Origin: a virus
DNA: 30,147 bases
Strand: one strand, 5' to 3'
IMG/VR virus record: IMGVR_UViG_3300045988_114868
Coordinates: 1 to 30,147 of that record
Within the stretch, counting starts at the first letter, position 1, and every line of letters begins with the position of its first letter. A model generated the notes under the pieces. The model made no database searches. It had not been told where the DNA came from and was given only the letters and a program-made list of their open reading frames with translations. Shown piece by piece: positions 385-28,600 of this stretch. A program made the translations under genes and the position numbers.

Positions 385-415
385 GGCGTGTCGCATCAAC
401 GTGGCACGCCTTTTT
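385..415 (+). terminator. 26-nt hairpin GGCGTGTCGCATCAACGTGGCACGCC plus T5; also carries the GGCGTGTCG box
   Basis: 8-bp arms (one G-U) followed by TTTTT. Ends the unit that starts at 28651. Confidence 0.7.
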
Positions 416-3734: not shown

Positions 3735-3760
3735 GGCGTGTCGCATCAACGTGACACGCC
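3735..3760 (+). promoter_or_regulatory. Second copy of the 26-nt hairpin (GGCGTGTCGCATCAACGTGACACGCC), a perfect 8-bp palindromic pair of boxes
   Basis: Differs from 385-410 at one base. No T-tract follows, so it looks more like an operator than a terminator. Confidence 0.55.
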
Positions 3761-15486: not shown

Positions 15487-17298
15487 TCAGGCCTTCGGTT
15501 TGATGACGACAGCGGACTTCTCAGCATCCAAGCCACCGCCAGCGTAGATCTCCTGCAGATATTCGTTGGTGTTAGTCTGGAGTGCAAAATTCGTAAACGA
15601 TTCGACGGAAGTGTCGCCGACGAACGCGTAGTGGGAAGCGGCCATGACCACGCCGGACGTCTTCTTGTCGTCGTCCTCGGTCCACCATTCCGGGGTAATG
15701 ATCTGGGATACGCCAAGAGCGCGGGCGAGGGTGTCGTCACCGCCAAGGGCGATGAAGCTGTTACCGTTCGCGTCGGCGGACATGAGCAGGTCGGCTACCG
15801 TGTCCGCATTGCAGACGAGGACCTTGTTGCCCTGGGCTCGAACCATGTGGGAAGCCTTCACGAAGCCCATGAGCGGCGCGTCTTCGGTGAGGGTGTAGGT
15901 GAGGGCGAACTTGTTACCGGCCCATCCGGAGGACCTGTCGGCCGCGTCGGTAGCGACGGAACGGAAGTGGGCCATGTCCTCGTACCCACCGAGCACGACC
16001 TGACGTTCGATGGTCTGAACGATATAGTTCGGCAATTCGGACAGGATGTAGCGGAGCAGTGCGCCCGGCTTCTGCGTGCGACGGATATCGCCCTTGTTCA
16101 GGGTGATGTACTTGTACGTGTAGTCGGCGGTCAGCTCACGCTTGACAAAGGACGGGGTCTGGTCCTTCTTCTTGGTGCCGTAGAAGTCGACGGGATAGCC
16201 GTGTGCACGGGTGTCTTCGGTGAGTCCGAGGATATTGCCGCCGATGGTGAGCCTGTCCATGCCGGTCTTGCGGAATAGGTTCCACAGTCCGGATCCGCGC
16301 GTGTTGAGCGCGTCGCTGATGGTGGTGATGGCTTCGGTCGGGATGAACTTGTCCACGTCGGTCTTGCCTACGCCAAAGGAGGCGGTGTCGGCCATGTTGT
16401 GGGCCACGGTGTCGGCCCATTCCTTATGGAATGCTTCAACGCCCTTATTGTCATTGTCGATGAGGGTGCGTTCGAAGGCGGCCATGGCGTCCGGAGAGTC
16501 TAGCCACGTCTTACGGTCGTGACCGAAGGAAACGATTCCGGACTGTCTGGCCGTATGATTGCTCTTGTTGACAATGACGAGCGGACGCTTGTTTGCGGAC
16601 TGGACCGGTTCTTCCGGAGAGCGGGTCTGCTGTGAGTCGTCCTGCGTAGCGTCGGTCTGAACGTTGACGGCTTCGGTGATATCGTCAACCGCGTCGGACA
16701 TGATGTCGGTGATGGAAGAGGTCAGGGTGGAAGCCTCGTCCGGGGAGAGCTTAAACTCTGCGACGGTACGTGCCAGCTTCTTCATGAGTTCCGGGTCCAT
16801 GTTATCTCCATTTCTTTTGTTGATTGCTGTGAAGGCTGCTCGCTGGTCGGCTCCACGGTAGACCACGCTGATTTCCACCAGTTCGCTGTCGTGGATGATG
16901 CCGTCCTTGCCGGGCCTTTGAGAAAATTCGACGGTGATACTGAAACTGTTGGTCAGGCATCCGTCTGCGGCGAGTTGGCGAACCCGTTCGCCGTTGTCGA
17001 CTTCGCTGAGCTTTGCCTCGGCCATGAGTCCGGCATCGGCCAGCCATAGGCGAGTGATGACGCCTGCCTGGGAGTTGATGCTTGGCTCGTGGTCGATTAG
17101 GAGCGGCAGCGTTAGTCGGTCGGATTCCGTGAGCTCTTCCACGAGTTTCAAACTGCCGTCGACGAGCGGCGCTTTGAGTGTGGTGAGATCCACGGTGAGA
17201 CCGTCGCACATTGGCTTGCCACTGTTGGCGAGGAATGTGAGGGTGCGGCCTTTTGTTTCAACAGCACCGCTGTGTGTGAGACTCTTGCGAATCTTCAA
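15487..17298 (-). CDS. Prohead protease - scaffold-like linker - HK97-fold major capsid fusion protein, 603 aa
   Basis: N-terminal HK97-type protease motifs: LLIDHEPS, LTNSFSITVEF, ELVEISVVYRGADQRAAF. An acidic linker follows, then a ~370-aa capsid-sized C-terminus. TTG start 17298 lies 6 nt after GAAAGGA. Confidence 0.75.
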   Translation of the reverse strand: MKIRKSLTHSGAVETKGRTLTFLANSGKPMCDGLTVDLTTLKAPLVDGSLKLVEELTESDRLTLPLLIDHEPSINSQAGVITRLWLADAGLMAEAKLSEVDNGERVRQLAADGCLTNSFSITVEFSQRPGKDGIIHDSELVEISVVYRGADQRAAFTAINKRNGDNMDPELMKKLARTVAEFKLSPDEASTLTSSITDIMSDAVDDITEAVNVQTDATQDDSQQTRSPEEPVQSANKRPLVIVNKSNHTARQSGIVSFGHDRKTWLDSPDAMAAFERTLIDNDNKGVEAFHKEWADTVAHNMADTASFGVGKTDVDKFIPTEAITTISDALNTRGSGLWNLFRKTGMDRLTIGGNILGLTEDTRAHGYPVDFYGTKKKDQTPSFVKRELTADYTYKYITLNKGDIRRTQKPGALLRYILSELPNYIVQTIERQVVLGGYEDMAHFRSVATDAADRSSGWAGNKFALTYTLTEDAPLMGFVKASHMVRAQGNKVLVCNADTVADLLMSADANGNSFIALGGDDTLARALGVSQIITPEWWTEDDDKKTSGVVMAASHYAFVGDTSVESFTNFALQTNTNEYLQEIYAGGGLDAEKSAVVIKPKA

Positions 17299-23616: not shown

Positions 23617-23790
23617 TTATTTGTTGTTTGGGTTCTGGTCCGGGATTACGTCGGGGTTGAGGAAGTAGCTTCTGCCGACCTTGACTGCGTGGAGTCGTCC
23701 TTCTCGGATGAATCTGCGGACGGTTTGAATGTTGAGCTTCCAGCGCTGGGCGTATTCGGGGACCGTTGCTGTGTAATCTTTAGCGTTCAT
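23617..23790 (-). CDS. 57-aa excisionase/MerR-type HTH DNA-binding protein, probably leaderless
   Basis: TVPEYAQRWKLNIQTVRRFIREGRLHAVKVGRSYFL fits the Xis-family HTH. TTGCAA-N17-TATAAT ends 7 nt before ATG 23790. Confidence 0.65.
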   Translation of the reverse strand: MNAKDYTATVPEYAQRWKLNIQTVRRFIREGRLHAVKVGRSYFLNPDVIPDQNPNNK

Positions 23791-23797
23791 AGATCCC

Positions 23798-23826
23798 ATT
23801 ATATAACGCTTTAATAATGGTTGCAA
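23798..23826 (-). promoter_or_regulatory. Near-consensus promoter TTGCAA-N17-TATAAT, 7 nt upstream of ATG 23790
   Basis: Read on the minus strand: ccggTTGCAAccattattaaagcgttaTATAATgggatctATG. Confidence 0.6.
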
Positions 23827-23856
23827 CCGGAGTGCGTGAAGTCCTGTAGCCCGCTC

Positions 23857-23886
23857 GGCGTGTCGGTTAACAGAGCATGATATCGT
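23857..23886 (+). promoter_or_regulatory. GGCGTGTCG box, 15 nt, extended -10 TGaTATCGT
   Basis: Divergent from the 23798-23826 promoter. Drives 23944-24156. Confidence 0.55.
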
Positions 23887-23943
23887 AAGTATCACAAAAC
23901 AACGCAGGATGTAAAAAATCCTGCATCTAGAAAGGAACCAAAA

Positions 23944-24156
23944 ATGAACGAGCAGAACACCAACCAGACCGAGGCCCAGCAGCAGCCGACGCAGCAGCCA
24001 ATCATCATCAACAACGTAATGGGGCAGTCGGACGACAGCGGCAAAAAGAAAGCCCCCGGTTTCATCAAGGTGTGCGTATACAGCTTCCTTACCTGCGGCA
24101 TCTACTTCTTCTACTGGCTCGTCAAGAGCCTGAGCGGCGGCTACCGCAATCGCTGA
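23944..24156 (+). CDS. 70-aa small membrane protein, monocistronic
   Basis: Gln-rich N-terminus then FIKVCVYSFLTCGIYFFYWLV. Context gaaaggaaccaaaaATG, own promoter 23857-23886 and terminator 24176-24218. Confidence 0.65.
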   Translation: MNEQNTNQTEAQQQPTQQPIIINNVMGQSDDSGKKKAPGFIKVCVYSFLTCGIYFFYWLVKSLSGGYRNR

Positions 24157-24175
24157 TGCAAACACGGCAAAAAAT

Positions 24176-24704: not shown

Positions 24705-25040
24705 ATGGGTTGGCGTACGAGCAAATATCACGCCAAGAAGGCGACTGTGGACGGTATTACCTTCGATTCACGTAAGGAAGCCGACAGGTATCTCACGCTC
24801 AAGGCCATGGAGGAGGAGGGCCTCATCGGGAACCTCAGGAGACAGGTGCGCTATGAGCTCGTCCCGGCCTTTGACGTGGACGGGAGGCATTACCGGCCTG
24901 TCTTCTACATGGCCGATTTCGTTTACGTGGAAGATGGCCAGGAGGTCGTCGAGGACGTGAAGGGCATGAAGACCGACACGTACAGGCTTAAAAGCAAGCT
25001 CTTCGCACGACGATACGGCATGAGCATCAAAGAGACGTGA
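24705..25040 (+). CDS. DUF1064-family protein (PD-(D/E)XK nuclease-like), 111 aa
   Basis: SKYHAKKATVDGITFDSRKEADRY...ADFVYVEDGQEVVEDVKGMKT matches the DUF1064 signature. ATG 24705 lies 5 nt after GGGAGG. Confidence 0.75.
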   Translation: MGWRTSKYHAKKATVDGITFDSRKEADRYLTLKAMEEEGLIGNLRRQVRYELVPAFDVDGRHYRPVFYMADFVYVEDGQEVVEDVKGMKTDTYRLKSKLFARRYGMSIKET

Positions 25041-25059
25041 CGACCTAGGAAGGTCACGA

Positions 25060-25111
25060 CCCCGGTTGGTTCGGATTTACTTAACCCCGAACCGGCCGGG
25101 GCTTTGTTTTT
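25060..25111 (+). terminator. Strong intrinsic terminator after DUF1064
   Basis: 15-bp stem CCCCGGUUGGUUCGG/CCGAACCGGCCGGGG with two G-U pairs valid only on the plus strand, then CTTTGTTTTT. Confidence 0.8.
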
Positions 25112-25177
25112 CAGGCGGAATAGACGCGATGAATAGAGGGATGAGGCTGTTCTCCCGTCAATATCTGGGGGCTGATA

Positions 25178-25216
25178 TTCAGTATCTAGATATCGGGGTT
25201 CAGTAGCTAGATATCG
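25178..25216. repeat. Two 18-bp direct repeats TTCAGTA(T/G)CTAGATATCG with 21-bp period
   Basis: 25178-25195 and 25199-25216. A related TAGCTAGATATGG lies at 25629-25641. Confidence 0.85.
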
Positions 25217-25254
25217 ACCCCTCGGTACCTAGGCGTCGAACAAGGATCCTTCTA

Positions 25255-25587
25255 CTAGATGACCCTCCCACTGGGGCCCTTCCACTGCATCCAATACGGC
25301 TCCCGCGGGGGGGGGTCGCCTTGCGTGCTTGTGGGAAAGGCAATTTCTGCCGATGGGGGAGCGGGATCCTTGACCGATCGTCGTTGAGACTCGATGGCTT
25401 CGGCGAGCATGGAATGGAGCTGTGGGGGGGGCTGGCCAGATGTCTTCGAAGCTTCTTCTATGGCCCTGAACAAAGAAGGGGTGAGAGCCATCGAGGGCTC
25501 TTTTCTACTACCCTCCCCCTGCCGAATGATAAGCCCGCACTCAAAATGAGGCAGGCTACACTCAAAATGAGGAGGGGCTGTCCTCAA
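25255..25587 (-). CDS. Questionable ORF with a ribbon-helix-helix-like core; contains C8 and C9 homopolymers
   Basis: Core SMALTPSLFRAIEEASKTSGQPPPQLHSMLAEAIES. It is the only ORF over 60 aa on the A/C-rich strand of the non-coding region. No SD is present, its N-terminus overlaps the iterons, and a paralogous frameshifted copy lies at 25733-25839. Confidence 0.3.
   Translation of the reverse strand: MRTAPPHFECSLPHFECGLIIRQGEGSRKEPSMALTPSLFRAIEEASKTSGQPPPQLHSMLAEAIESQRRSVKDPAPPSAEIAFPTSTQGDPPPREPYWMQWKGPSGRVI
25396..25480. repeat. Copy A of a ~85-bp dispersed direct repeat
   Basis: Aligns with 25745-25826: 25-nt block with 4 differences, 38-nt block with 7 differences, and a 4-nt indel between them at the G-run. 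Confidence 0.85.
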
Positions 25588-25617
25588 TATGATGACTAGC
25601 TAAACCTCAAAATGAGG
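25540..25617. repeat. Four iterons CTCAAAATGAGG (three exact, one degenerate CTCAATATGATG) spaced 21, 22 and 23 bp
   Basis: Starts at 25540, 25561, 25583 and 25606. Each has CTCA/TGAG inverted arms. Confidence 0.85.
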
Positions 25618-25620
25618 ACT

Positions 25621-25699
25621 CATATATATAGCTAGATATGGATAGATAGATATAGATAGATATAGATAAGAGAAAGAAAGAAAGATAAATCTTTCTTTC
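25621..25699. repeat. AT-rich block: (TA)4, GATA/GATAGATATA tandem repeats, (GAAA)n and a perfect 10-bp palindrome GAAAGAAAGA-taaa-TCTTTCTTTC
   Basis: Read directly. Almost no C between 25621 and 25690. Confidence 0.9.
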
Positions 25700-25732
25700 C
25701 AAAGAGAGAGAACCCGAAACCAATCTCCGATA

Positions 25733-25839
25733 TCAAGCCTTGAAGGCTTCGGTGATCACGGAGTGGAGCCATGGGGATACTCTCGATGCTTCAAAGCTTC
25801 TTCCATGGCTCTGAGCAAGGAGGAGGATACGGGCTTCAC
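25733..25839 (-). pseudogene. Frameshifted paralogue of the RHH-like core
   Basis: VKPVSSSLLRAMEEALKHREYP / (W)LHSVITEAFKA. The two halves are conserved at protein level with copy A but lie in different frames. One extra C in the CCCC run (plus-strand GGGG 25773-25776) would join them. Confidence 0.3.
25745..25826. repeat. Copy B of the ~85-bp dispersed direct repeat
   Basis: See copy A. Confidence 0.85.
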
Positions 25840-25945
25840 CTCGATGCTGCCCCTCGGGCCTTGGTCCCGACACTCGATCGGGTTAGGGCATGGAGGAGAG
25901 TTGGTCGGTGCTTGGCTTGGGTGGACCTCTCACGGTTTGGTGTTC

Positions 25946-25973
25946 TCGATGCTTTTCGATGCTTTTTGATGCT
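25946..25973. repeat. Tandem TCGATGCTTT x3 (third unit TTGATGCT), 10-bp period
   Basis: Starts at 25946, 25956 and 25966. Further TCGATGCT copies lie at 25783, 25841 and 26622. Confidence 0.8.
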
Positions 25974-25986
25974 GGAACGTCGTTTT

Positions 25987-26080
25987 CGTGCGTAAAGGCC
26001 TTTTTAACGGGCTGTCGTGAGGGAGCCTGACGAGTTATCGGGTTTGACGGGAAAATCGGTTTGAGTGGCCTTTACGCGCG
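25987..26080 (+). other. Long-range 14-bp helix (25987-26000 with 26067-26080, one G-U) enclosing 66 nt
   Basis: CGUGCGUAAAGGCC pairs with GGCCUUUACGCGCG. The G-U would be a C-A mismatch on the minus strand. Confidence 0.4.
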
Positions 26081-26432
26081 TTCTGGAGGTATGTGCGGTG
26101 GAAAGCGTGTGAGAGGAATGCCGTGGATGACATAATGAAAAACCCCACCGCAGCACAATGTACTATGATGGGGCGTAGAGCTTAACAAAGCCAGTATACC
26201 ACATATCTGGGTGCGGAGGCACGAAAACTCCCCAGCCATATCCCTTGCTTGGTTAACGGGACGGCGATTAACACTCGCCGATACACACGTTAGAGGTGCT
26301 GGCTCAACCGACCTGACAGGCGATGGTGAAATAACCGGGATGCCGACGCCATCGCATCAAAGATGCAGCGCGACCTGTTGGGGTATGCCGCATCAGTGGT
26401 AGCAATGCACCACTCTTATGAACGACGCCGTG

Positions 26433-26448
26433 CGACCGACCGACCGAC
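26433..26448. repeat. Tetranucleotide microsatellite (CGAC)4
   Basis: Read directly. Confidence 0.9.
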
Positions 26449-26460
26449 GGAAACAGTCAA

Positions 26461-26504
26461 TAAGCCTTAATCTGAAGCTCTTGAACTTCAGCTCTTAAGG
26501 CTTA
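26461..26504. other. 44-nt imperfect palindrome/hairpin
   Basis: Outer stem TAAGCCTTAA/TTAAGGCTTA (10 bp), inner stem TGAAG/CTTCA. Confidence 0.6.
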
Positions 26505-26691
26505 CTCTCTCTACCAGATCTCGTTCCCTCCCTCAAGAAACACACCATGGCGGTGTGGGGGTTGGGTGGTTGCGAGGGCTGGGATGTGAGGGTATGGGAT
26601 GTGCCCTGGCTGGCTTGGCTTTCGATGCTCGGCGGCATTCTCTACAATCGCAGCCTCTTCAGCTCATTCATCGAAAAAGAGTGAACGCATC

Positions 26692-26721
26692 GGCGTGTCG
26701 TCCAAGAAAACAGGCTATACT
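26692..26721 (+). promoter_or_regulatory. GGCGTGTCG box, 15 nt, -10 TATACT
   Basis: Same box-to--10 spacing as at 23857 and 28571. Confidence 0.45.
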
Positions 26722-26727
26722 GAAGAC

Positions 26728-26839
26728 ATACGCCATGTAAGATGCTCCTACCACTTACGTGGGAAGACAATCTACATGGTACGAATCCCATTGATTGCCA
26801 CCGAGTAGGAGACGGTAGCAGTCGGTGGGATTCCTTTTT
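26728..26839 (+). ncRNA. Candidate ~110-nt leader or small RNA between promoter 26692-26721 and terminator 26783-26839
   Basis: Bounded by a promoter-like element and a strong terminator. Contains mutually exclusive helices. No ORF with an SD. Confidence 0.3.
26783..26839 (+). terminator. Strong plus-strand intrinsic terminator 18 nt before the replication gene ATG
   Basis: 21-bp stem (three G-U, one mismatch) GAAUCCCAUUGAUUGCCACCG/CGGUAGCAGUCGGUGGGAUUC, 9-nt loop, then C plus T5. Confidence 0.8.
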
Positions 26840-26856
26840 AAGATTCGAGACATCTC

Positions 26857-27600
26857 ATGGACATCAAAGACGCTAACTTTGTCACCATCCAAGGCTGGAT
26901 GCGCACCAAACTCAACCTCAAAGGCAACGAACTACTCGCCTACGCCGTCATCTACGGCTTCACCCAGATAGCCGGTACCAAATTCACCGGCTCCAGAAAA
27001 TACCTCGCCGAGTGGTGCGGATGCTCCATAGCCACGATCGACAGAACGCTCATCTCCCTCGTTGACAAAGGCCTCATTTCAAAGACCTCACACATTACGA
27101 AGTACGGCTGCCGCGCCGTTGAATACGCAGCCACGTGCCCGGCACCCCTCGACGAACACTCCGATACGGAACCCCAGACCACGGAGGTGAACGACCTACG
27201 CACTCCGGCCGGCGAACCACAGCCGCTCATCGACGAACCGCAAACCCCCTCACAGCCAAAGGAACCAGACCCCACCGAAGAGGTCGTAAACCACCTCAAC
27301 CGCCGTGCCGGCACCCAGTACAAGCCCACCACCGCAAACACGCGCAAACTCGTCAAGGCCCGCCTCAAGGAAGGCTTCACCGTCGAGGACATGAAACTGG
27401 TCATCGACAAGAAATGCGCAGACTGGCTCAACAACCCGGAGATGGCAAAATTCCTCCGCCCGGACACACTCTTCGGTAACAAATTCGAAGGCTACCTCAA
27501 CGCCCGAACAACCATTCGACCCAACACCAACACCGCAGCCATCGCACAGGACGCCGACGGCCACGTAGCCGAATGCACCCGCGAAAACGGCTGGTTCTAA
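26857..27600 (+). CDS. Replication initiator-like protein: N-terminal winged HTH plus conserved phage C-terminal domain (Phg_2220_C type)
   Basis: KYLAEWCGCSIATIDRTLISLVDKGLI (wHTH). EVVNHLNRRAGTQYKPTTANTRKLVKARLKEGFTVEDMKLVIDKKCADWLNNPEMAKFLRPDTLFGNKFEGYLN matches the conserved phage replication C-terminus. Confidence 0.75.
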   Translation: MDIKDANFVTIQGWMRTKLNLKGNELLAYAVIYGFTQIAGTKFTGSRKYLAEWCGCSIATIDRTLISLVDKGLISKTSHITKYGCRAVEYAATCPAPLDEHSDTEPQTTEVNDLRTPAGEPQPLIDEPQTPSQPKEPDPTEEVVNHLNRRAGTQYKPTTANTRKLVKARLKEGFTVEDMKLVIDKKCADWLNNPEMAKFLRPDTLFGNKFEGYLNARTTIRPNTNTAAIAQDADGHVAECTRENGWF

Positions 27601-27674
27601 CCACGACACGCCGGCACACAATACCGGCAATACGTGAGGTAACATTATCCCGGACGGCAGGAAAGGAACCACAA

Positions 27675-28520
27675 ATGAAAACCAACCTCATCGAAACCAT
27701 GGTCCGCGAAGCAATCCAAAACAGCCACTACGAAGAAGGTGACTACATCAACGAAGACGGCCTCCTAATGTGCGGTAAATGCCACACGCCAAAACAATGC
27801 AGCTTCATCGCCACATGGGACGGCAAGGAAAAGAAACCATACACTCCCTGCAACTGCGCACGTGAACGCCAGAACGCAGAAGAACAGGCACGACAGGCGC
27901 AAAACCTCCGCATCGAAATAAACCGACTCCGCAAACTCGGCTTCCCCGACAGCGAAATGGCCGACTGGACATTCGCTAACGACGACGGGACAGACCCGAA
28001 GACCACGAGCATCGCCCACAACTACGTCGACAACTTCCACGAAATGAAGAAACGAGGCAAAGGACTGCTCCTATACGGTACTGTCGGTACCGGCAAAACA
28101 TACGCAGCAGCCTGTATCGCCAACGAACTCATCAGCCAAGGCCATCCATGCCTCGTAACCAACTTCGCAAGGATCACCAACACCCTCCAAGGAATGTTCG
28201 AAGGGAAGCAACGCTACCTCGACGACTTCAACCGTCTTGATCTGCTCGTCATCGACGATCTGGCCGCAGAACGCGACACATCCTACATGAACGAAATGAT
28301 CTTCAACATCATCGACTCCAGATACCGGAGCGGCAAACCACTCATCGTAACATCCAACCTCACACAAGCCGATCTGAAGGCTCCAAGCTCCGTCGACAGG
28401 AAACGCATCTATTCACGACTGCTTGAAATGTGCGTGCCAATCGAAGTGAAAGGCGCTGACAGGCGGGAAAAGAAGCTCCGCGACGATTCGGTCGACATGG
28501 CAAGACTCCTCGGCCTCTGA
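27675..28520 (+). CDS. DnaC/IstB-like AAA+ helicase loader with N-terminal Cys-rich (zinc-ribbon-like) segment
   Basis: Walker A GTVGTGKT, Walker B LLVIDDL, sensor PLIVTSN; CGKCH...CNC. ATG 27675 has context ggaaaggaaccacaaATG. Confidence 0.8.
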   Translation: MKTNLIETMVREAIQNSHYEEGDYINEDGLLMCGKCHTPKQCSFIATWDGKEKKPYTPCNCARERQNAEEQARQAQNLRIEINRLRKLGFPDSEMADWTFANDDGTDPKTTSIAHNYVDNFHEMKKRGKGLLLYGTVGTGKTYAAACIANELISQGHPCLVTNFARITNTLQGMFEGKQRYLDDFNRLDLLVIDDLAAERDTSYMNEMIFNIIDSRYRSGKPLIVTSNLTQADLKAPSSVDRKRIYSRLLEMCVPIEVKGADRREKKLRDDSVDMARLLGL

Positions 28521-28529
28521 CAATCCCAA

Positions 28530-28560
28530 GGCGACACGTGCAACAGCGTGCCGCCTTTTT
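28530..28560 (+). terminator. 26-nt hairpin GGCGACACGTGCAACAGCGTGCCGCC plus T5, a structural variant of the 385/3735 hairpin
   Basis: Same length, same GGCG...CGCC ends and CAAC-containing loop, but different arm sequence. Follows the DnaC-like gene. Confidence 0.7.
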
Positions 28561-28570
28561 CCATACCCTC

Positions 28571-28600
28571 GGCGTGTCGCATCACGTATGTGGGTATAGT
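28571..28600 (+). promoter_or_regulatory. GGCGTGTCGCATCAC box, 15 nt from box core, -10 TATAGT
   Basis: Followed by TCAGGCAAGGA (compare TCAAGCAAGGA at 432-442). Confidence 0.5.

What the first reader, a model, noticed from the sequence alone, without database searches (positions are those of the whole stretch)
26692..26859. Promoter, alternative helices and a 21-bp terminator sit directly before an SD-less replication gene
- Promoter: a GGCGTGTCG-N15-TATACT element (26692-26721) would start a transcript near 26728.
- Terminator: about 55 nt later comes a very strong terminator (26783-26839, a 21-bp stem plus T5). It ends only 18 nt before the ATG of the initiator gene (26857).
- No SD: this gene, unlike nearly every other plus-strand gene, lacks the AAAGGA(A/G)C SD. 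Only GAGA is present.
- Alternative pairing in the leader: CCAUGUAAG (26733-26741) can pair with CUUACGUGG (26754-26762). Alternatively, CCAUGUA can pair with UACAUGG (26773-26779), which abuts the terminator's 5' arm.
- Interpretation: this looks like an attenuator controlling read-through into the replication genes, or a discrete ~110-nt RNA that regulates or primes replication.
Basis: partly seen in the sequence, partly recalled or inferred. Interest (0 to 1): 0.65.

Follow-up and report, generated by a model that had tools for sequence, protein, structure and literature searches.

The report
Two-state kissing-loop leader RNA before replication genes
Just ahead of this gut phage's DNA-replication genes sits a conserved, previously undescribed ~110-nucleotide RNA that starts at a phage-specific promoter, can fold in two alternative ways, has two hairpin loops that match each other perfectly, and ends in a terminator that transcription must pass to reach the replication genes.

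Summary
The element (26689-26844, + strand) occurs once per genome in 34 distinct relatives, all ~30-kb human-gut phages with a probable actinobacterial host. It has no Rfam match.

- **Promoter:** GGCGTGTCG-N14/15-TAnnnT recurs three times in the window, against 0.13 expected.
- **Terminator:** the 21-bp hairpin is a plus-strand RNA helix followed by a U-rich tail.
- **Alternative helices:** A:B and A:C both covary.
the loop of the first hairpin (L1, CUCCUAC) is the exact complement of the terminator's apical loop (L2, GUAGGAG). All 34 sequences keep 6-8 such pairs through at least 9 compensated variants. L1 alternatively pairs with the segment after B.

The RNA therefore has two near-isoenergetic states: A:B plus an L1·L2 kiss, or A:C plus L1:B' with L2 free. 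Neither alternative helix overlaps the terminator stem, and no anti-terminator was found, so classical attenuation is not supported.

Best reading: a leader RNA ending in a partial terminator. Its two-state, self-complementary 5' domain tunes or feeds back on replication-operon expression. The lack of a Shine-Dalgarno sequence is not a family trait.

The parts
26692..26700 (+). Upstream promoter element GGCGTGTCG. It occupies the -35 region but is not TTGACA-like.
   Evidence: Invariant or nearly so in 34 relatives, and conservation starts abruptly here. The same 9-mer lies 15 nt upstream of a TAnnnT at 23857 and 28571 and at the homologous places in relatives.
26716..26721 (+). -10 hexamer TATACT
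   Evidence: Relatives carry TATACT, TACACT, TATGCT, TAGACT, TACGCT or TAATAT, always TAnnnT. Nearly all relatives have an extended -10 TGn, which the window has lost.
26726..26732 (+). Inferred transcription start (about 26728) and single-stranded 5' leader AUACG
   Evidence: Placed by its distance from the -10 hexamer (inference). GACAUACGCC is nearly invariant. The start site was not verified experimentally.
26733..26741 (+). Segment A (CCAUGUAAG): the 5' strand of both alternative helices
   Evidence: It pairs with B or with C. Both pairings covary (0/20000 permutations each; pairs 51:92, 52:91 and 53:90 have changes on both sides).
26745..26751 (+). L1 core (CUCCUAC), within the loop 26742-26753 of hairpin A:B
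   Evidence: It is the Watson-Crick complement of L2 in all 34 sequences. It alternatively pairs with B' and the linker.
26754..26762 (+). Segment B (CUUACGUGG): the 3' strand of the first-formed, weaker hairpin HP1
   Evidence: A:B averages -12.2 kcal/mol and always carries a G-U, mismatch or bulge, whereas A:C is a near-perfect match. B covaries independently in L081.
26759..26766 (+). B' (GUGGGAAG; GUGGAG in relatives): the alternative partner of L1 in state II
   Evidence: The inner hairpin appears in the minimum-free-energy folds of nearly all relatives, with compensatory changes: L004 AUCCU/AGGAU, L170 GGUAU/AUACC, L091 ACCCAC/GUGGGU.
26773..26779 (+). Segment C (UACAUGG): the stronger partner of A
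   Evidence: A:C averages -15.8 kcal/mol and is chosen by RNAalifold. The tether from the end of B to the start of the terminator is 19-21 nt in all 34 sequences.
26783..26803 (+). Terminator hairpin T, 5' arm (GAAUCCCAUUGAUUGCCACCG)
   Evidence: Only 4 of 19 paired positions vary across the family, against 12 of 19 in the 3' arm. This arm therefore carries a sequence constraint beyond pairing.
26804..26812 (+). L2, the apical loop of T (AGUAGGAGA); core GUAGGAG 26805-26811
   Evidence: Complementary to L1. Six of 8 pairs show changes on both sides; the covariation score is 0.48 against 0.18 for shuffles (0/500) and at most 0.20 for slid controls.
26813..26833 (+). Terminator hairpin T, 3' arm
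   Evidence: All of its substitutions are transitions that keep U-A/U-G or G-C/G-U pairs, so the helix is read on the + strand as RNA.
26835..26839 (+). U-tract (T5)
   Evidence: At least 4 U in the 8 nt after the stem in 29 of 34 relatives, typically ACUUUU.
26857..27600 (+). Replisome-organizer / initiator gene (HTH_36 + Phg_2220_C), the first gene downstream
   Evidence: Pfam match. The start codon lies 21-25 nt after the hairpin in most relatives.
27573..28520 (+). DnaC/IstB-like helicase-loader gene, second gene of the unit (its true start is probably internal to this ORF)
   Evidence: Pfam IstB_IS21 / Bac_DnaA. It always follows the initiator gene in relatives.
28529..28561 (+). Hairpin GGCGACACG...CGUGCCGCC followed by U5. 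It closes the initiator-loader transcription unit; the next GGCGTGTCG promoter follows at 28571.
   Evidence: Read directly from the sequence; the promoter is.

Best explanation
The locus encodes a promoter-proximal structured leader RNA of a previously undescribed family.

**Architecture**
- Transcription starts about 26728 from a phage-specific promoter (GGCGTGTCG-N14/15-TAnnnT).
- The first ~110 nt end in a very stable hairpin (T) plus a U-tract.
- T acts as an intrinsic but incomplete terminator. It releases a short RNA and limits how many polymerases continue into the initiator and helicase-loader genes.

**Two competing folds of the 5' domain**
- State I forms first. It is the A:B hairpin, which displays loop L1; L1 base-pairs with the apical loop L2 of the terminator hairpin in a kissing or pseudoknot contact.
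- State II is the more stable nested fold. It has A:C, with L1 hidden by pairing to B', which leaves L2 exposed on top of T.

**Proposed function**
- L1 and L2 are each other's only partners, and the switch does not compete with the terminator stem.
- I therefore propose that the switch controls RNA-RNA recognition between copies of this same leader, either in cis or between the released short RNA and nascent or read-through leaders.
- That would give dosage-dependent feedback on replication-gene expression.

**Shown:** the promoter architecture; the plus-strand RNA helices; both alternative helices; the L1:L2 and L1:B' covariation; the U-rich tail; and the fixed position ahead of the replication module.

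**Inferred:** the transcription start; that T actually terminates; the order of folding; and the whole regulatory output, including its sign.
For: **Family**
- One copy per genome in 46 loci (34 distinct sequences), scoring 149-177 bits with the covariance model. No copy elsewhere.

**Promoter**
- The motif recurs in the window (4 matches against 0.13 expected) and at homologous sites in relatives.
- The -10 hexamer varies only within TAnnnT, and relatives have an extended -10.

**Terminator T**
- -31.2 kcal/mol, z -8.
- The 3'-arm changes are all G-U-compatible transitions.
- The plus strand folds much better than the minus strand (-47.3 against -25.1).
- The tail is U-rich in 29 of 34 sequences.
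- The unit is closed by a second terminator and the next promoter, so the initiator and loader genes can only be transcribed through T.

**Switch**
- A:B and A:C both covary (0/20000 permutations each), and A:C is the stronger.
- L1:L2 forms 6-8 contiguous pairs in 34 of 34 sequences, with 13 sequence variants including a compensated indel (0/20000).
- The formal count has 6 of 8 pairs changed on both sides, with a covariation score of 0.48 against 0.18 for shuffles.
- L1:B' shows compensatory changes.
- The crude energy difference between the two states averages -3.5 kcal/mol, range -9 to +4.
- The tether length is fixed at 19-21 nt.

**Link to replication**
- The element precedes the initiator + DnaC-like loader pair even where the initiator is replaced by a different type.

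**Precedents**
- A short terminated RNA acting on its own read-through transcript: IsrK (PMC4825925).
- Kissing-loop-initiated RNA control of rep-gene attenuators: pT181 (PMC4878617).
Against: - No anti-terminator was found. Nothing upstream pairs with the 5' arm of T better than shuffled sequence does, and neither alternative helix overlaps T. There is therefore no structural route by which the switch would change termination.
- No pairing between the leader and the ribosome-binding site is conserved, because the spacer is variable.
- The U-tract is short (usually 4 U after a 2-nt spacer) and degenerate in 5 of 34 sequences.
- The near-invariance of the T 5' arm points to an unidentified extra partner, protein or RNA, that the model does not include.
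- The covariation tests use related sequences, so the permutation results overstate independence.
- There are no expression data of any kind, and the host is unknown.
Confidence: 0.42

Rival explanations
1. It is a free-standing trans-acting small RNA gene. The ~110-nt RNA ending at T is the product. Its targets are host or phage RNAs or proteins elsewhere. The kissing contact and the two folds serve only its own architecture or activation, and read-through into the replication genes is mere leakiness.
For: It has its own promoter and its own terminator, and its length is tightly conserved at 107-113 nt. The 5' arm of T is invariant in sequence, as expected for a protein- or target-binding surface. 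Terminator loops are known to serve as pairing sites in sRNAs (PMC11979758, listed).
Against: No third complementary site for L1 or L2 was found within +/-4 kb in any genome or anywhere in the window. The hypervariable loops match only each other. The initiator and loader genes have no other promoter, so read-through is obligatory rather than incidental. The position is fixed 21-25 nt before the first replication gene.
Confidence: 0.2
2. It is a 5'-UTR processing or stability element. The 21-bp helix T, or the roughly 37-bp quasi-continuous HP1-kiss-T stack of state I, is a double-strand-specific RNase (RNase III) substrate. The fraction of leaders in state I then sets the half-life or translatability of the replication mRNA.
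For: The helix is about two turns long, with a conserved single mismatch or bulge and conserved G-U pairs. It lies at a fixed distance from the start codon. The switch changes what is stacked on T without changing T itself.
Against: This does not explain the conserved U-rich tail. No sequence feature specific to RNase III sites can be tested here, and no data on cleavage exist.
Confidence: 0.12
3. It is a cis-acting RNA that modifies RNA polymerase for processive antitermination (put-like or EAR-like). That would let the polymerase read through T and the later terminators of the early region.
For: It consists of two stem-loops directly downstream of an early-region promoter, with terminators downstream at 26835 and 28529-28561.
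Against: Only one of the three GGCGTGTCG promoters carries it. The second stem-loop is itself followed by the U-tract. The parts that would contact polymerase are hypervariable. There is no Rfam match.
Confidence: 0.07
4. It is a DNA-level element: an operator, iterons or a single-strand hairpin origin signal. On this reading the repeats A, B, C and L1/L2 are protein-binding sites rather than RNA helices.
For: It lies next to replication genes. GGCGTGTCG...GACAUACGCC form an inverted repeat around the -10 hexamer. A, B and C could be read as one inverted and two direct copies of a site.
Against: The substitutions keep G-U pairs on the + strand only. L1 and L2 sit exactly in hairpin loops and change by compensated substitutions and a compensated indel. 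The element stays the same while the initiator's DNA-binding type is swapped.
Confidence: 0.03

Closest known systems
Antisense-RNA-mediated transcription attenuators of rep genes in plasmids pT181, pIP501 and pAMbeta1
   Same: A structured leader with an intrinsic terminator lies directly before a replication-initiator gene. A 5' 'sensing' hairpin has a loop that engages a complementary hairpin loop by kissing. Specificity resides in fast-evolving loops (mechanism as summarised in PMC4878617).
   Different: Here the complementary loop is encoded on the same strand in the same RNA, as the terminator's own apical loop. No counter-transcript promoter is conserved on the minus strand. No anti-terminator pairs with the terminator's 5' arm. 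The setting is a phage, not a plasmid.
Same-strand immunity RNAs of phages P4 (CI RNA with seqA/seqB/seqC) and P1/P7 (c4 RNA)
   Same: (From my own knowledge.) The regulator and its complementary targets lie on one strand of one transcript. These RNAs control an operon that includes replication or antirepressor genes, and the complementary segments covary between related phages to define specificity.
   Different: Those RNAs are cut out of the leader by RNase P. They act on sites that overlap a ribosome-binding site or cause Rho-dependent termination. Here the 3' end is made by a terminator, no ribosome-binding site is involved, no tRNA-like feature exists, and the Rfam c4 family does not match.
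IsrK of the Gifsy-1 prophage (dual small RNA and messenger RNA)
   Same: One promoter gives a short terminated RNA and a read-through transcript. Alternative structures exist, and the short form acts in trans on the long form (PMC4825925).
   Different: IsrK opens a ribosome-binding site of a downstream ORF. Here no pairing with the ribosome-binding site is conserved, the complementary partners are two hairpin loops within the first 110 nt, and there is no sequence relationship.
phi29 packaging RNA (pRNA)
   Same: (From my own knowledge.) A phage RNA of ~120-170 nt with two loops that are complementary to each other and covary among relatives.
   Different: pRNA belongs to phi29-type protein-primed podoviruses with a dedicated packaging ATPase. 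This phage has a classical large terminase and portal. The RNA sits before the replication genes, and Rfam's pRNA model does not match.
HK022 put RNAs and lambda oop RNA
   Same: (From my own knowledge.) put: two stem-loops just downstream of early promoters. oop: a short terminated RNA encoded next to the replication gene O.
   Different: put suppresses terminators rather than carrying one. oop is antisense to cII and reads away from O. Neither has mutually complementary loops.

Membership tests
Intrinsic (factor-independent) terminator | Stable G+C-containing stem-loop in the RNA | tested here: met
   -31.2 kcal/mol, z -8.05. The helix is kept in 34 of 34 relatives through G-U-compatible changes.
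Intrinsic (factor-independent) terminator | U-rich tract immediately 3' of the stem | tested here: met
   T5 starts 1 nt after the stem in the window. At least 4 U in the next 8 nt in 29 of 34 relatives; the tract is degenerate in 5.
Intrinsic (factor-independent) terminator | Transcripts actually end there | not testable with these tools
   No transcript data are available. The generic terminator scan misses the hairpin because its loop is 9 nt and its stem exceeds 20 bp.
Sigma-70-type promoter | -10 hexamer TAnnnT at a suitable distance from the structured RNA | tested here: met
   TATACT at 26716-26721. All variants in relatives keep TAnnnT, and relatives carry an extended -10 TGn.
Sigma-70-type promoter | -35 hexamer resembling TTGACA, 16-18 nt upstream | tested here: not met
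   The -35 region is occupied by the invariant GGCGTGTCG. The generic promoter scan does not call it. It is instead a recurrent phage-specific upstream element.
pT181/pIP501-type antisense-controlled attenuator | Terminator in the leader of a replication-initiator gene | tested here: met
   T ends 17 nt before the ATG of the initiator gene.
pT181/pIP501-type antisense-controlled attenuator | Anti-terminator segment that pairs with the 5' arm of the terminator | tested here: not met
   The best duplex between the upstream RNA and the T 5' arm is no better than for shuffled sequence (mean z +0.24) and sits at inconsistent places. Truncated-transcript folds show none.
pT181/pIP501-type antisense-controlled attenuator | Counter-transcript made from the opposite strand of the leader | tested here: inconclusive
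   No TAnnnT on the minus strand is conserved across the alignment (my reading). The minus strand folds far worse. Transcription was not tested.
P4 CI / P1 c4 same-strand immunity RNA | Regulator segment and complementary target on the same strand of one transcript, covarying among relatives | tested here: met
   L1 and L2.
P4 CI / P1 c4 same-strand immunity RNA | Sequence or structure membership (Rfam c4 model); a processed, tRNA-like RNase P substrate | tested here: not met
   No Rfam match, even at E <= 5. No tRNA-like gene was found.
Riboswitch | Multi-helix junction with invariant unpaired pocket nucleotides, and an expression platform that shares a strand with the aptamer | tested here: not met
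   The loops and most helices are hypervariable. The invariant positions lie in the promoter region, the 5' end and the T stem. The terminator shares no strand with the switch.
phi29-type pRNA | Two mutually complementary loops | tested here: met
phi29-type pRNA | Association with a phi29-type packaging system; match to the Rfam pRNA model | tested here: not met
   The phage has a classical large terminase, portal and tape-measure protein (siphovirus layout). No Rfam match.

The most novel reading that the evidence does not exclude
This would be a sense-strand, self-recognising dosage sensor.

- The short RNA released at the terminator exposes L2 on top of its terminator hairpin (state II).
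- It kisses loop L1 of the transient first hairpin on nascent leaders made from sister genomes.
- That contact decides their fold and, with it, how much functional replication mRNA is made.

This would be antisense-style copy-number control without an antisense gene. The rapidly covarying L1/L2 pair (and A/B/C) would then define compatibility groups among co-infecting phages.
Probability: 0.18. Interest if true: 0.8.

Novelty: new variant of a known kind. Interest (0 to 1): 0.62.

Why it matters
- **A new RNA class.** It adds a well-supported structured RNA, with strong covariation, a pseudoknot or kissing contact and two selected folds, to the very small set of known RNA regulators at phage replication modules. 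It comes from uncultured human-gut phages of actinobacteria, where nothing is known about gene control.
- **An unusual design.** The terminator's own apical loop is the specific partner of an upstream hairpin loop. If this works in trans between copies of the leader, it would show that plasmid-like copy-number sensing can be built from a single sense transcript. It would also provide naturally orthogonal loop pairs for RNA engineering.
- **A phage promoter class.** GGCGTGTCG-N14/15-TAnnnT can be used to annotate transcription units in these genomes.

Tried and rejected
- **Rfam:** no match at gathering thresholds on the whole window. Only three weak sub-threshold matches (E 2.2-3.9: mir-39, mir-9201, sR4), taken as chance, at E <= 5 on 24900-27000. 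No match at E <= 1 on four relatives.
- **tRNA/tmRNA scan:** none found.
- **Nucleotide search of isolated phages:** no match.
- **Search for prophage copies or a host in 185,579 reference genomes:** 53 hits to the hairpin pattern. None carries the rest of the element, and the number is what chance predicts for that pattern.
- **Covariance-model search of the nearest isolate and of distant initiator homologues:** no copy in Bifidobacterium phage BlindBasel1 or the distant loci.
- **Anti-terminator or pre-emptor pairing with the terminator's 5' arm:** no better than shuffled sequence.
- **Leader peptide:** A contains AUG-UAA or AUG-UGA only in some types. The AUG in C is followed by a stop after two codons in many relatives (AUG GCA UGA), so no peptide is conserved (reading).
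- **Third partner for L1, L2, A or C elsewhere in the phage:** only scattered chance hits, none at a homologous place.
- **Complement of L1/B at 26388-26402 (I6):** it belongs to a separate local hairpin that covaries on its own and does not track L1.
- **Strong match of the T 3' arm at 17103-17117:** it lies in capsid-gene coding sequence and is not kept in relatives.
- **T-arm or tRNA-like reading of GGUACGAAUCCC:** the junction is variable (YAN) and the stems do not fit.
- **Minus-strand RNA:** it folds much worse, and its G-U pairs would become A·C mismatches.
Full report
**Observation**

- Promoter: GGCGTGTCG 26692-26700, a 15-nt spacer, then TATACT 26716-26721.
- Segments: A CCAUGUAAG 26733-26741; B CUUACGUGG 26754-26762; C UACAUGG 26773-26779.
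- Hairpin: arms 26783-26803 and 26813-26833, 9-nt loop, T5 at 26835-26839.
- Start codon: ATG at 26857.

The hairpin folds at -31.2 kcal/mol against -12.4 +/- 2.3 for dinucleotide shuffles (z -8.05, 0/200). The 133-nt leader as a whole has z -5.9.

**Context**

The window is a complete-looking ~30-kb siphovirus genome.
- The late genes, from terminase to endolysin, run on the minus strand from about 21.2 to 4.5 kb.
- The early and replication genes run on the plus strand.
- No integrase was found.
- The gene at 26857 is a replisome organizer (HTH_36 + Phg_2220_C). The next gene is a DnaC/IstB-like loader.
- After the loader comes a hairpin plus U5 (28529-28561) and then another promoter of the same type at 28571.
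- The initiator and loader genes therefore form one transcription unit. Its only promoter is the one in the finding, and its 5' untranslated region contains the big hairpin.
- The nearest cultured relatives are Bifidobacterium asteroides phages (terminase 49% identical). The endolysin resembles those of Arthrobacter, Brevibacterium, Propionibacterium and Rothia phages. The host is therefore probably an actinobacterium.

**Relatives**

- Searching viral contigs with the initiator protein gave about 20 genomes of 28-31 kb.
- Pattern searches added more from viral and human-gut metagenome collections.
- The 190 nt upstream of the first replication gene are conserved in all of them.
- Conservation starts abruptly at CGGCGTGTCG and ends at GGGAUUC-ACUUUU.
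- A covariance model built from 31 sequences finds exactly one copy per genome (149-177 bits) in 46 loci, which are 34 distinct sequences.
- It finds none in the B. asteroides phage or in distant initiator homologues.
- Hits to the hairpin pattern in reference bacterial genomes lack the rest of the element and are as numerous as chance predicts.
- Rfam has no matching family.

**Promoter**

- GGCGTGTCG-N15-TAnnnT occurs three times exactly in the window, all on the plus strand: at 23857, 26692 and 28571. Each is ahead of plus-strand genes. A fourth copy has one mismatch.
- The chance expectation is 0.13, and 0/100 shuffles reach the observed number.
- The two other sites are kept at homologous positions in relatives.
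- In the element itself, relatives have a 14-nt spacer and an extended -10 (CGTGnTAnnCT). The hexamer varies only as TATACT, TACACT, TATGCT, TAGACT, TACGCT or TAATAT, so A2 and T6 are always kept.
- The -35 position is not TTGACA-like. The 9-mer is a phage-specific upstream element whose reader (sigma factor or activator) is unknown.
- The window's copy has lost the TG and gained one spacer base.
- The transcription start near 26728 is inferred from spacing only.

**The hairpin T is a plus-strand RNA helix**

- Across 34 sequences the 5' arm varies at 4 of 19 paired positions, and at only one position within the lower stem. The 3' arm varies at 12 of 19.
- Every 3'-arm change is a transition that converts U-A to U-G, or G-C to G-U, or the reverse. 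On the minus strand these would be A·C mismatches.
- The consensus fold is -47.3 kcal/mol on the plus strand against -25.1 on the minus strand.
- The asymmetry means the 5' arm, GAAUCCCAUUGAUUG, carries a constraint beyond pairing, which remains unexplained.
- The stem is followed by a U-rich tail: typically ACUUUU, with at least 4 U of 8 in 29 of 34 sequences.
- The start codon lies 21-25 nt further on.
- Most relatives have a good Shine-Dalgarno sequence there. The window and a few initiator variants do not.

**The 5' domain has two selected folds**

*Both helices of A covary.*
- A pairs with B: cognate mean -12.2 kcal/mol against -8.9 for non-cognate pairs.
- A pairs with C: cognate mean -15.8 against -10.8.
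- In each case 0 of 20,000 permutations of partners do as well.
- RNAalifold shows pairs with changes on both sides in A:C.
- B always departs from the perfect complement by a G-U, a mismatch or a bulge, whereas C is nearly perfect. The hairpin that can form first is therefore systematically the weaker one.

*The two loops are complementary.*
- When the two hairpins are folded separately, their apical loops come out as exact complements:

| L1 | L2 |
|---|---|
| CUCCUAC | GUAGGAG |
| CCCAC | GUGGG |
| CCCUAC | GUAGGG |
| CCCCC | GGGGG |
| UGCACC | GGUGCA |
| CUCCAC | GUGGAG |

- All 34 sequences keep 6-8 contiguous pairs through 13 sequence variants. These include a compensated insertion (CCACC/GGUGG against CCUACC/GGUAGG). 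The permutation test gives 0/20,000.
- A formal count on register-anchored loop sequences:
  - 89.8% of cells are paired, against 75.3% in shuffles.
  - 6 of 8 pairs have changes on both sides.
  - The covariation score is 0.48, against 0.18 for shuffles (0/500) and at most 0.20 for slid partners.
- The sequences are related, so these numbers overstate independence. The variety of compensated states is nonetheless convincing.

*L1 has a second partner.*
- In the nested minimum-free-energy fold (A:C), L1 pairs with the GUGGAG that overlaps the 3' end of B and the following linker.
- This pairing has its own compensatory changes: AUCCU/AGGAU in L004, GGUAU/AUACC in L170, ACCCAC/GUGGGU in L091.

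*The two states.*
- State I is the A:B hairpin with L1 kissing L2, leaving C and the linker single-stranded.
- State II is A:C enclosing L1:B', leaving L2 free on top of T.
- A crude energy sum puts them within a few kcal/mol of each other: mean -3.5, range -9 to +4, with large error.
- The tether between B and T is 19-21 nt in every sequence, and the whole RNA is 107-113 nt.

**What the switch does not do**

- Neither alternative helix overlaps the terminator stem; C ends 3 nt before it.
- The best pairing of any upstream segment with the 5' arm of T is no better than for shuffled sequence and lands at inconsistent places (mean z +0.24).
- Folds of transcripts truncated before the 3' arm show no conserved anti-terminator.
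- There is no conserved leader peptide.
- There is no conserved promoter on the minus strand for a counter-transcript.
- There is no third site complementary to L1 or L2, either in +/-4 kb of any genome or anywhere in the window.
L1 and L2 are each other's only partners.

**Link to replication**

The element always precedes an initiator + DnaC-like loader pair, even where the initiator is a different protein type:
- a 292-aa MKYTIEG type in seven genomes;
- an MKKHILD type in L095;
- an extra small gene in L013.

The L1/L2 types are not correlated with the initiator type. The element therefore belongs to the head of the replication transcription unit and works at the RNA level, independently of the initiator's DNA specificity.

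**Mechanism: what is shown and what is inferred**

Shown:
- the promoter architecture;
- a plus-strand RNA with a terminator-like 3' end;
- two mutually exclusive folds, each kept by compensatory change;
- a specific loop-loop contact that involves the terminator's apical loop;
- obligatory passage of replication-gene transcription through T.

Inferred:
- T is a partial terminator, giving a short RNA and a read-through mRNA.
- A:B forms first and displays L1.
- Either the RNA's own L2, or L2 on an already released short RNA in state II, captures L1 before C displaces B.
- The outcome tunes how much functional replication mRNA is made.

I cannot derive the sign or the molecular output (termination, decay or translation) from sequence. 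The invariant 5' arm of T suggests a missing protein or RNA partner. I put 0.42 on this leader/attenuator-with-self-recognition reading. The rivals are:
- a free-standing trans-acting sRNA, 0.20;
- an RNase III-type processing or stability element, 0.12;
- a put-like antitermination RNA, 0.07;
- a DNA-level element, 0.03.

**Comparison with known systems**

- It works most like the rep-gene attenuators of pT181/pIP501: a kissing-loop sensing hairpin plus a terminator before the initiator gene (PMC4878617). However, it fails two defining tests of that family, since it has no anti-terminator and no antisense gene.
- It shares the same-strand logic of P4 CI and P1 c4 RNAs, and the short-RNA/read-through duality of IsrK (PMC4825925). 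It lacks their processing and their ribosome-binding-site targets.
- The mutually complementary loops recall phi29 pRNA, but the packaging system here is a classical terminase.
- It is not a member of any described family. I rate it a new variant of a known kind: a regulatory leader or small RNA at a replication module.

**By-products**

The 1.8-kb ORF-poor gap upstream (25041-26690) is not empty. It contains short direct repeats and an AT-rich tract. It also holds two large conserved regions with extensive predicted structure and compensatory changes, one favouring the plus strand and one the minus strand. Neither has an Rfam match.

Noticed in passing
window 26130-26560: A large conserved structured region of about 350 nt.
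- Structure: in 14 relatives RNAalifold predicts 95 pairs on the plus strand, 15 of them with changes on both sides. One example is GAUGGUG/CGCCAUC changing to GGCAGUG/CACUGCC. A long-range closing helix joins 26210-26219 to 26505-26515.
- Strand: the minus strand folds even better (-109.7 against -84.0 kcal/mol; 114 pairs). A strong minus-strand hairpin plus U5 lies at 26137-26175, so the RNA may be transcribed leftward.
- Distribution: there is no Rfam match. The region is present in only a subset of relatives; the others have about 275 nt of different sequence there.
   Followed up: partly
window 25700-26135: A second conserved block, present in nearly all relatives, with an extensive consensus structure. 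It has 111 pairs, many of them G-U, and 9 with compensatory changes. It strongly favours the plus strand (-97.5 against -43.0 kcal/mol). Part of it (25736-25826) is a diverged duplicate of 25387-25481. It may be another large non-coding RNA.
   Followed up: partly
window 25100-25700: Iteron-like short direct repeats: TTCAGTAkCTAGATATCG twice, 21 bp apart; CACTCAAAATGAGG three times; TAGATAGATATAGA runs. There is also an AT-rich tract at 25620-25700. The layout looks like an origin of replication or another protein-binding array. The cumulative GC skew peaks at about 26-27 kb.
   Followed up: partly
window 385-410 and 3735-3760: The promoter 9-mer GGCGTGTCG also forms the 5' arm of two near-identical hairpins, GGCGTGTCGCATCAACGTGrCACGCC. 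The first is followed by T5. Both are followed by TATGAT-type -10 boxes and a Shine-Dalgarno sequence. They look like terminator-promoter cassettes between early genes. The motif GGCGTGTCG is over-represented overall (13 near-matches against 5.2 expected).
   Followed up: partly
window 1-30147 (composition): Very strong strand composition skew: GC skew reaches +/-0.35 and AT skew +/-0.5. The sign flips at about 10.5 kb, inside the tape-measure gene, rather than at the boundary between plus- and minus-strand genes. It flips again at about 26-27 kb. The skew therefore follows something other than coding strand, perhaps replication direction.
   Followed up: no
window 26547-26684; L012 3294-3853: Relatives carry two small plus-strand genes directly upstream of the element: one of 82 aa and one of 102 aa that looks like a winged-helix protein. 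The second one's stop overlaps the GGCGTGTCG box. The window keeps only the last ~20 codons of the first gene (…LGGILYNRSLFSSFIEKE), so it has suffered a deletion here.
   Followed up: partly
window 23857-23943: The promoter of the same class at 23857 drives a leader with a small hairpin (GCAGGAUGUAAAAAAUCCUGC). Downstream is a 70-aa Q-rich membrane-like protein (23944-24156), followed by dUTPase and DUF1064. The 182-aa minus-strand ORF listed at 23617-24165 is probably a much shorter HTH gene ending near 23799.
   Followed up: no
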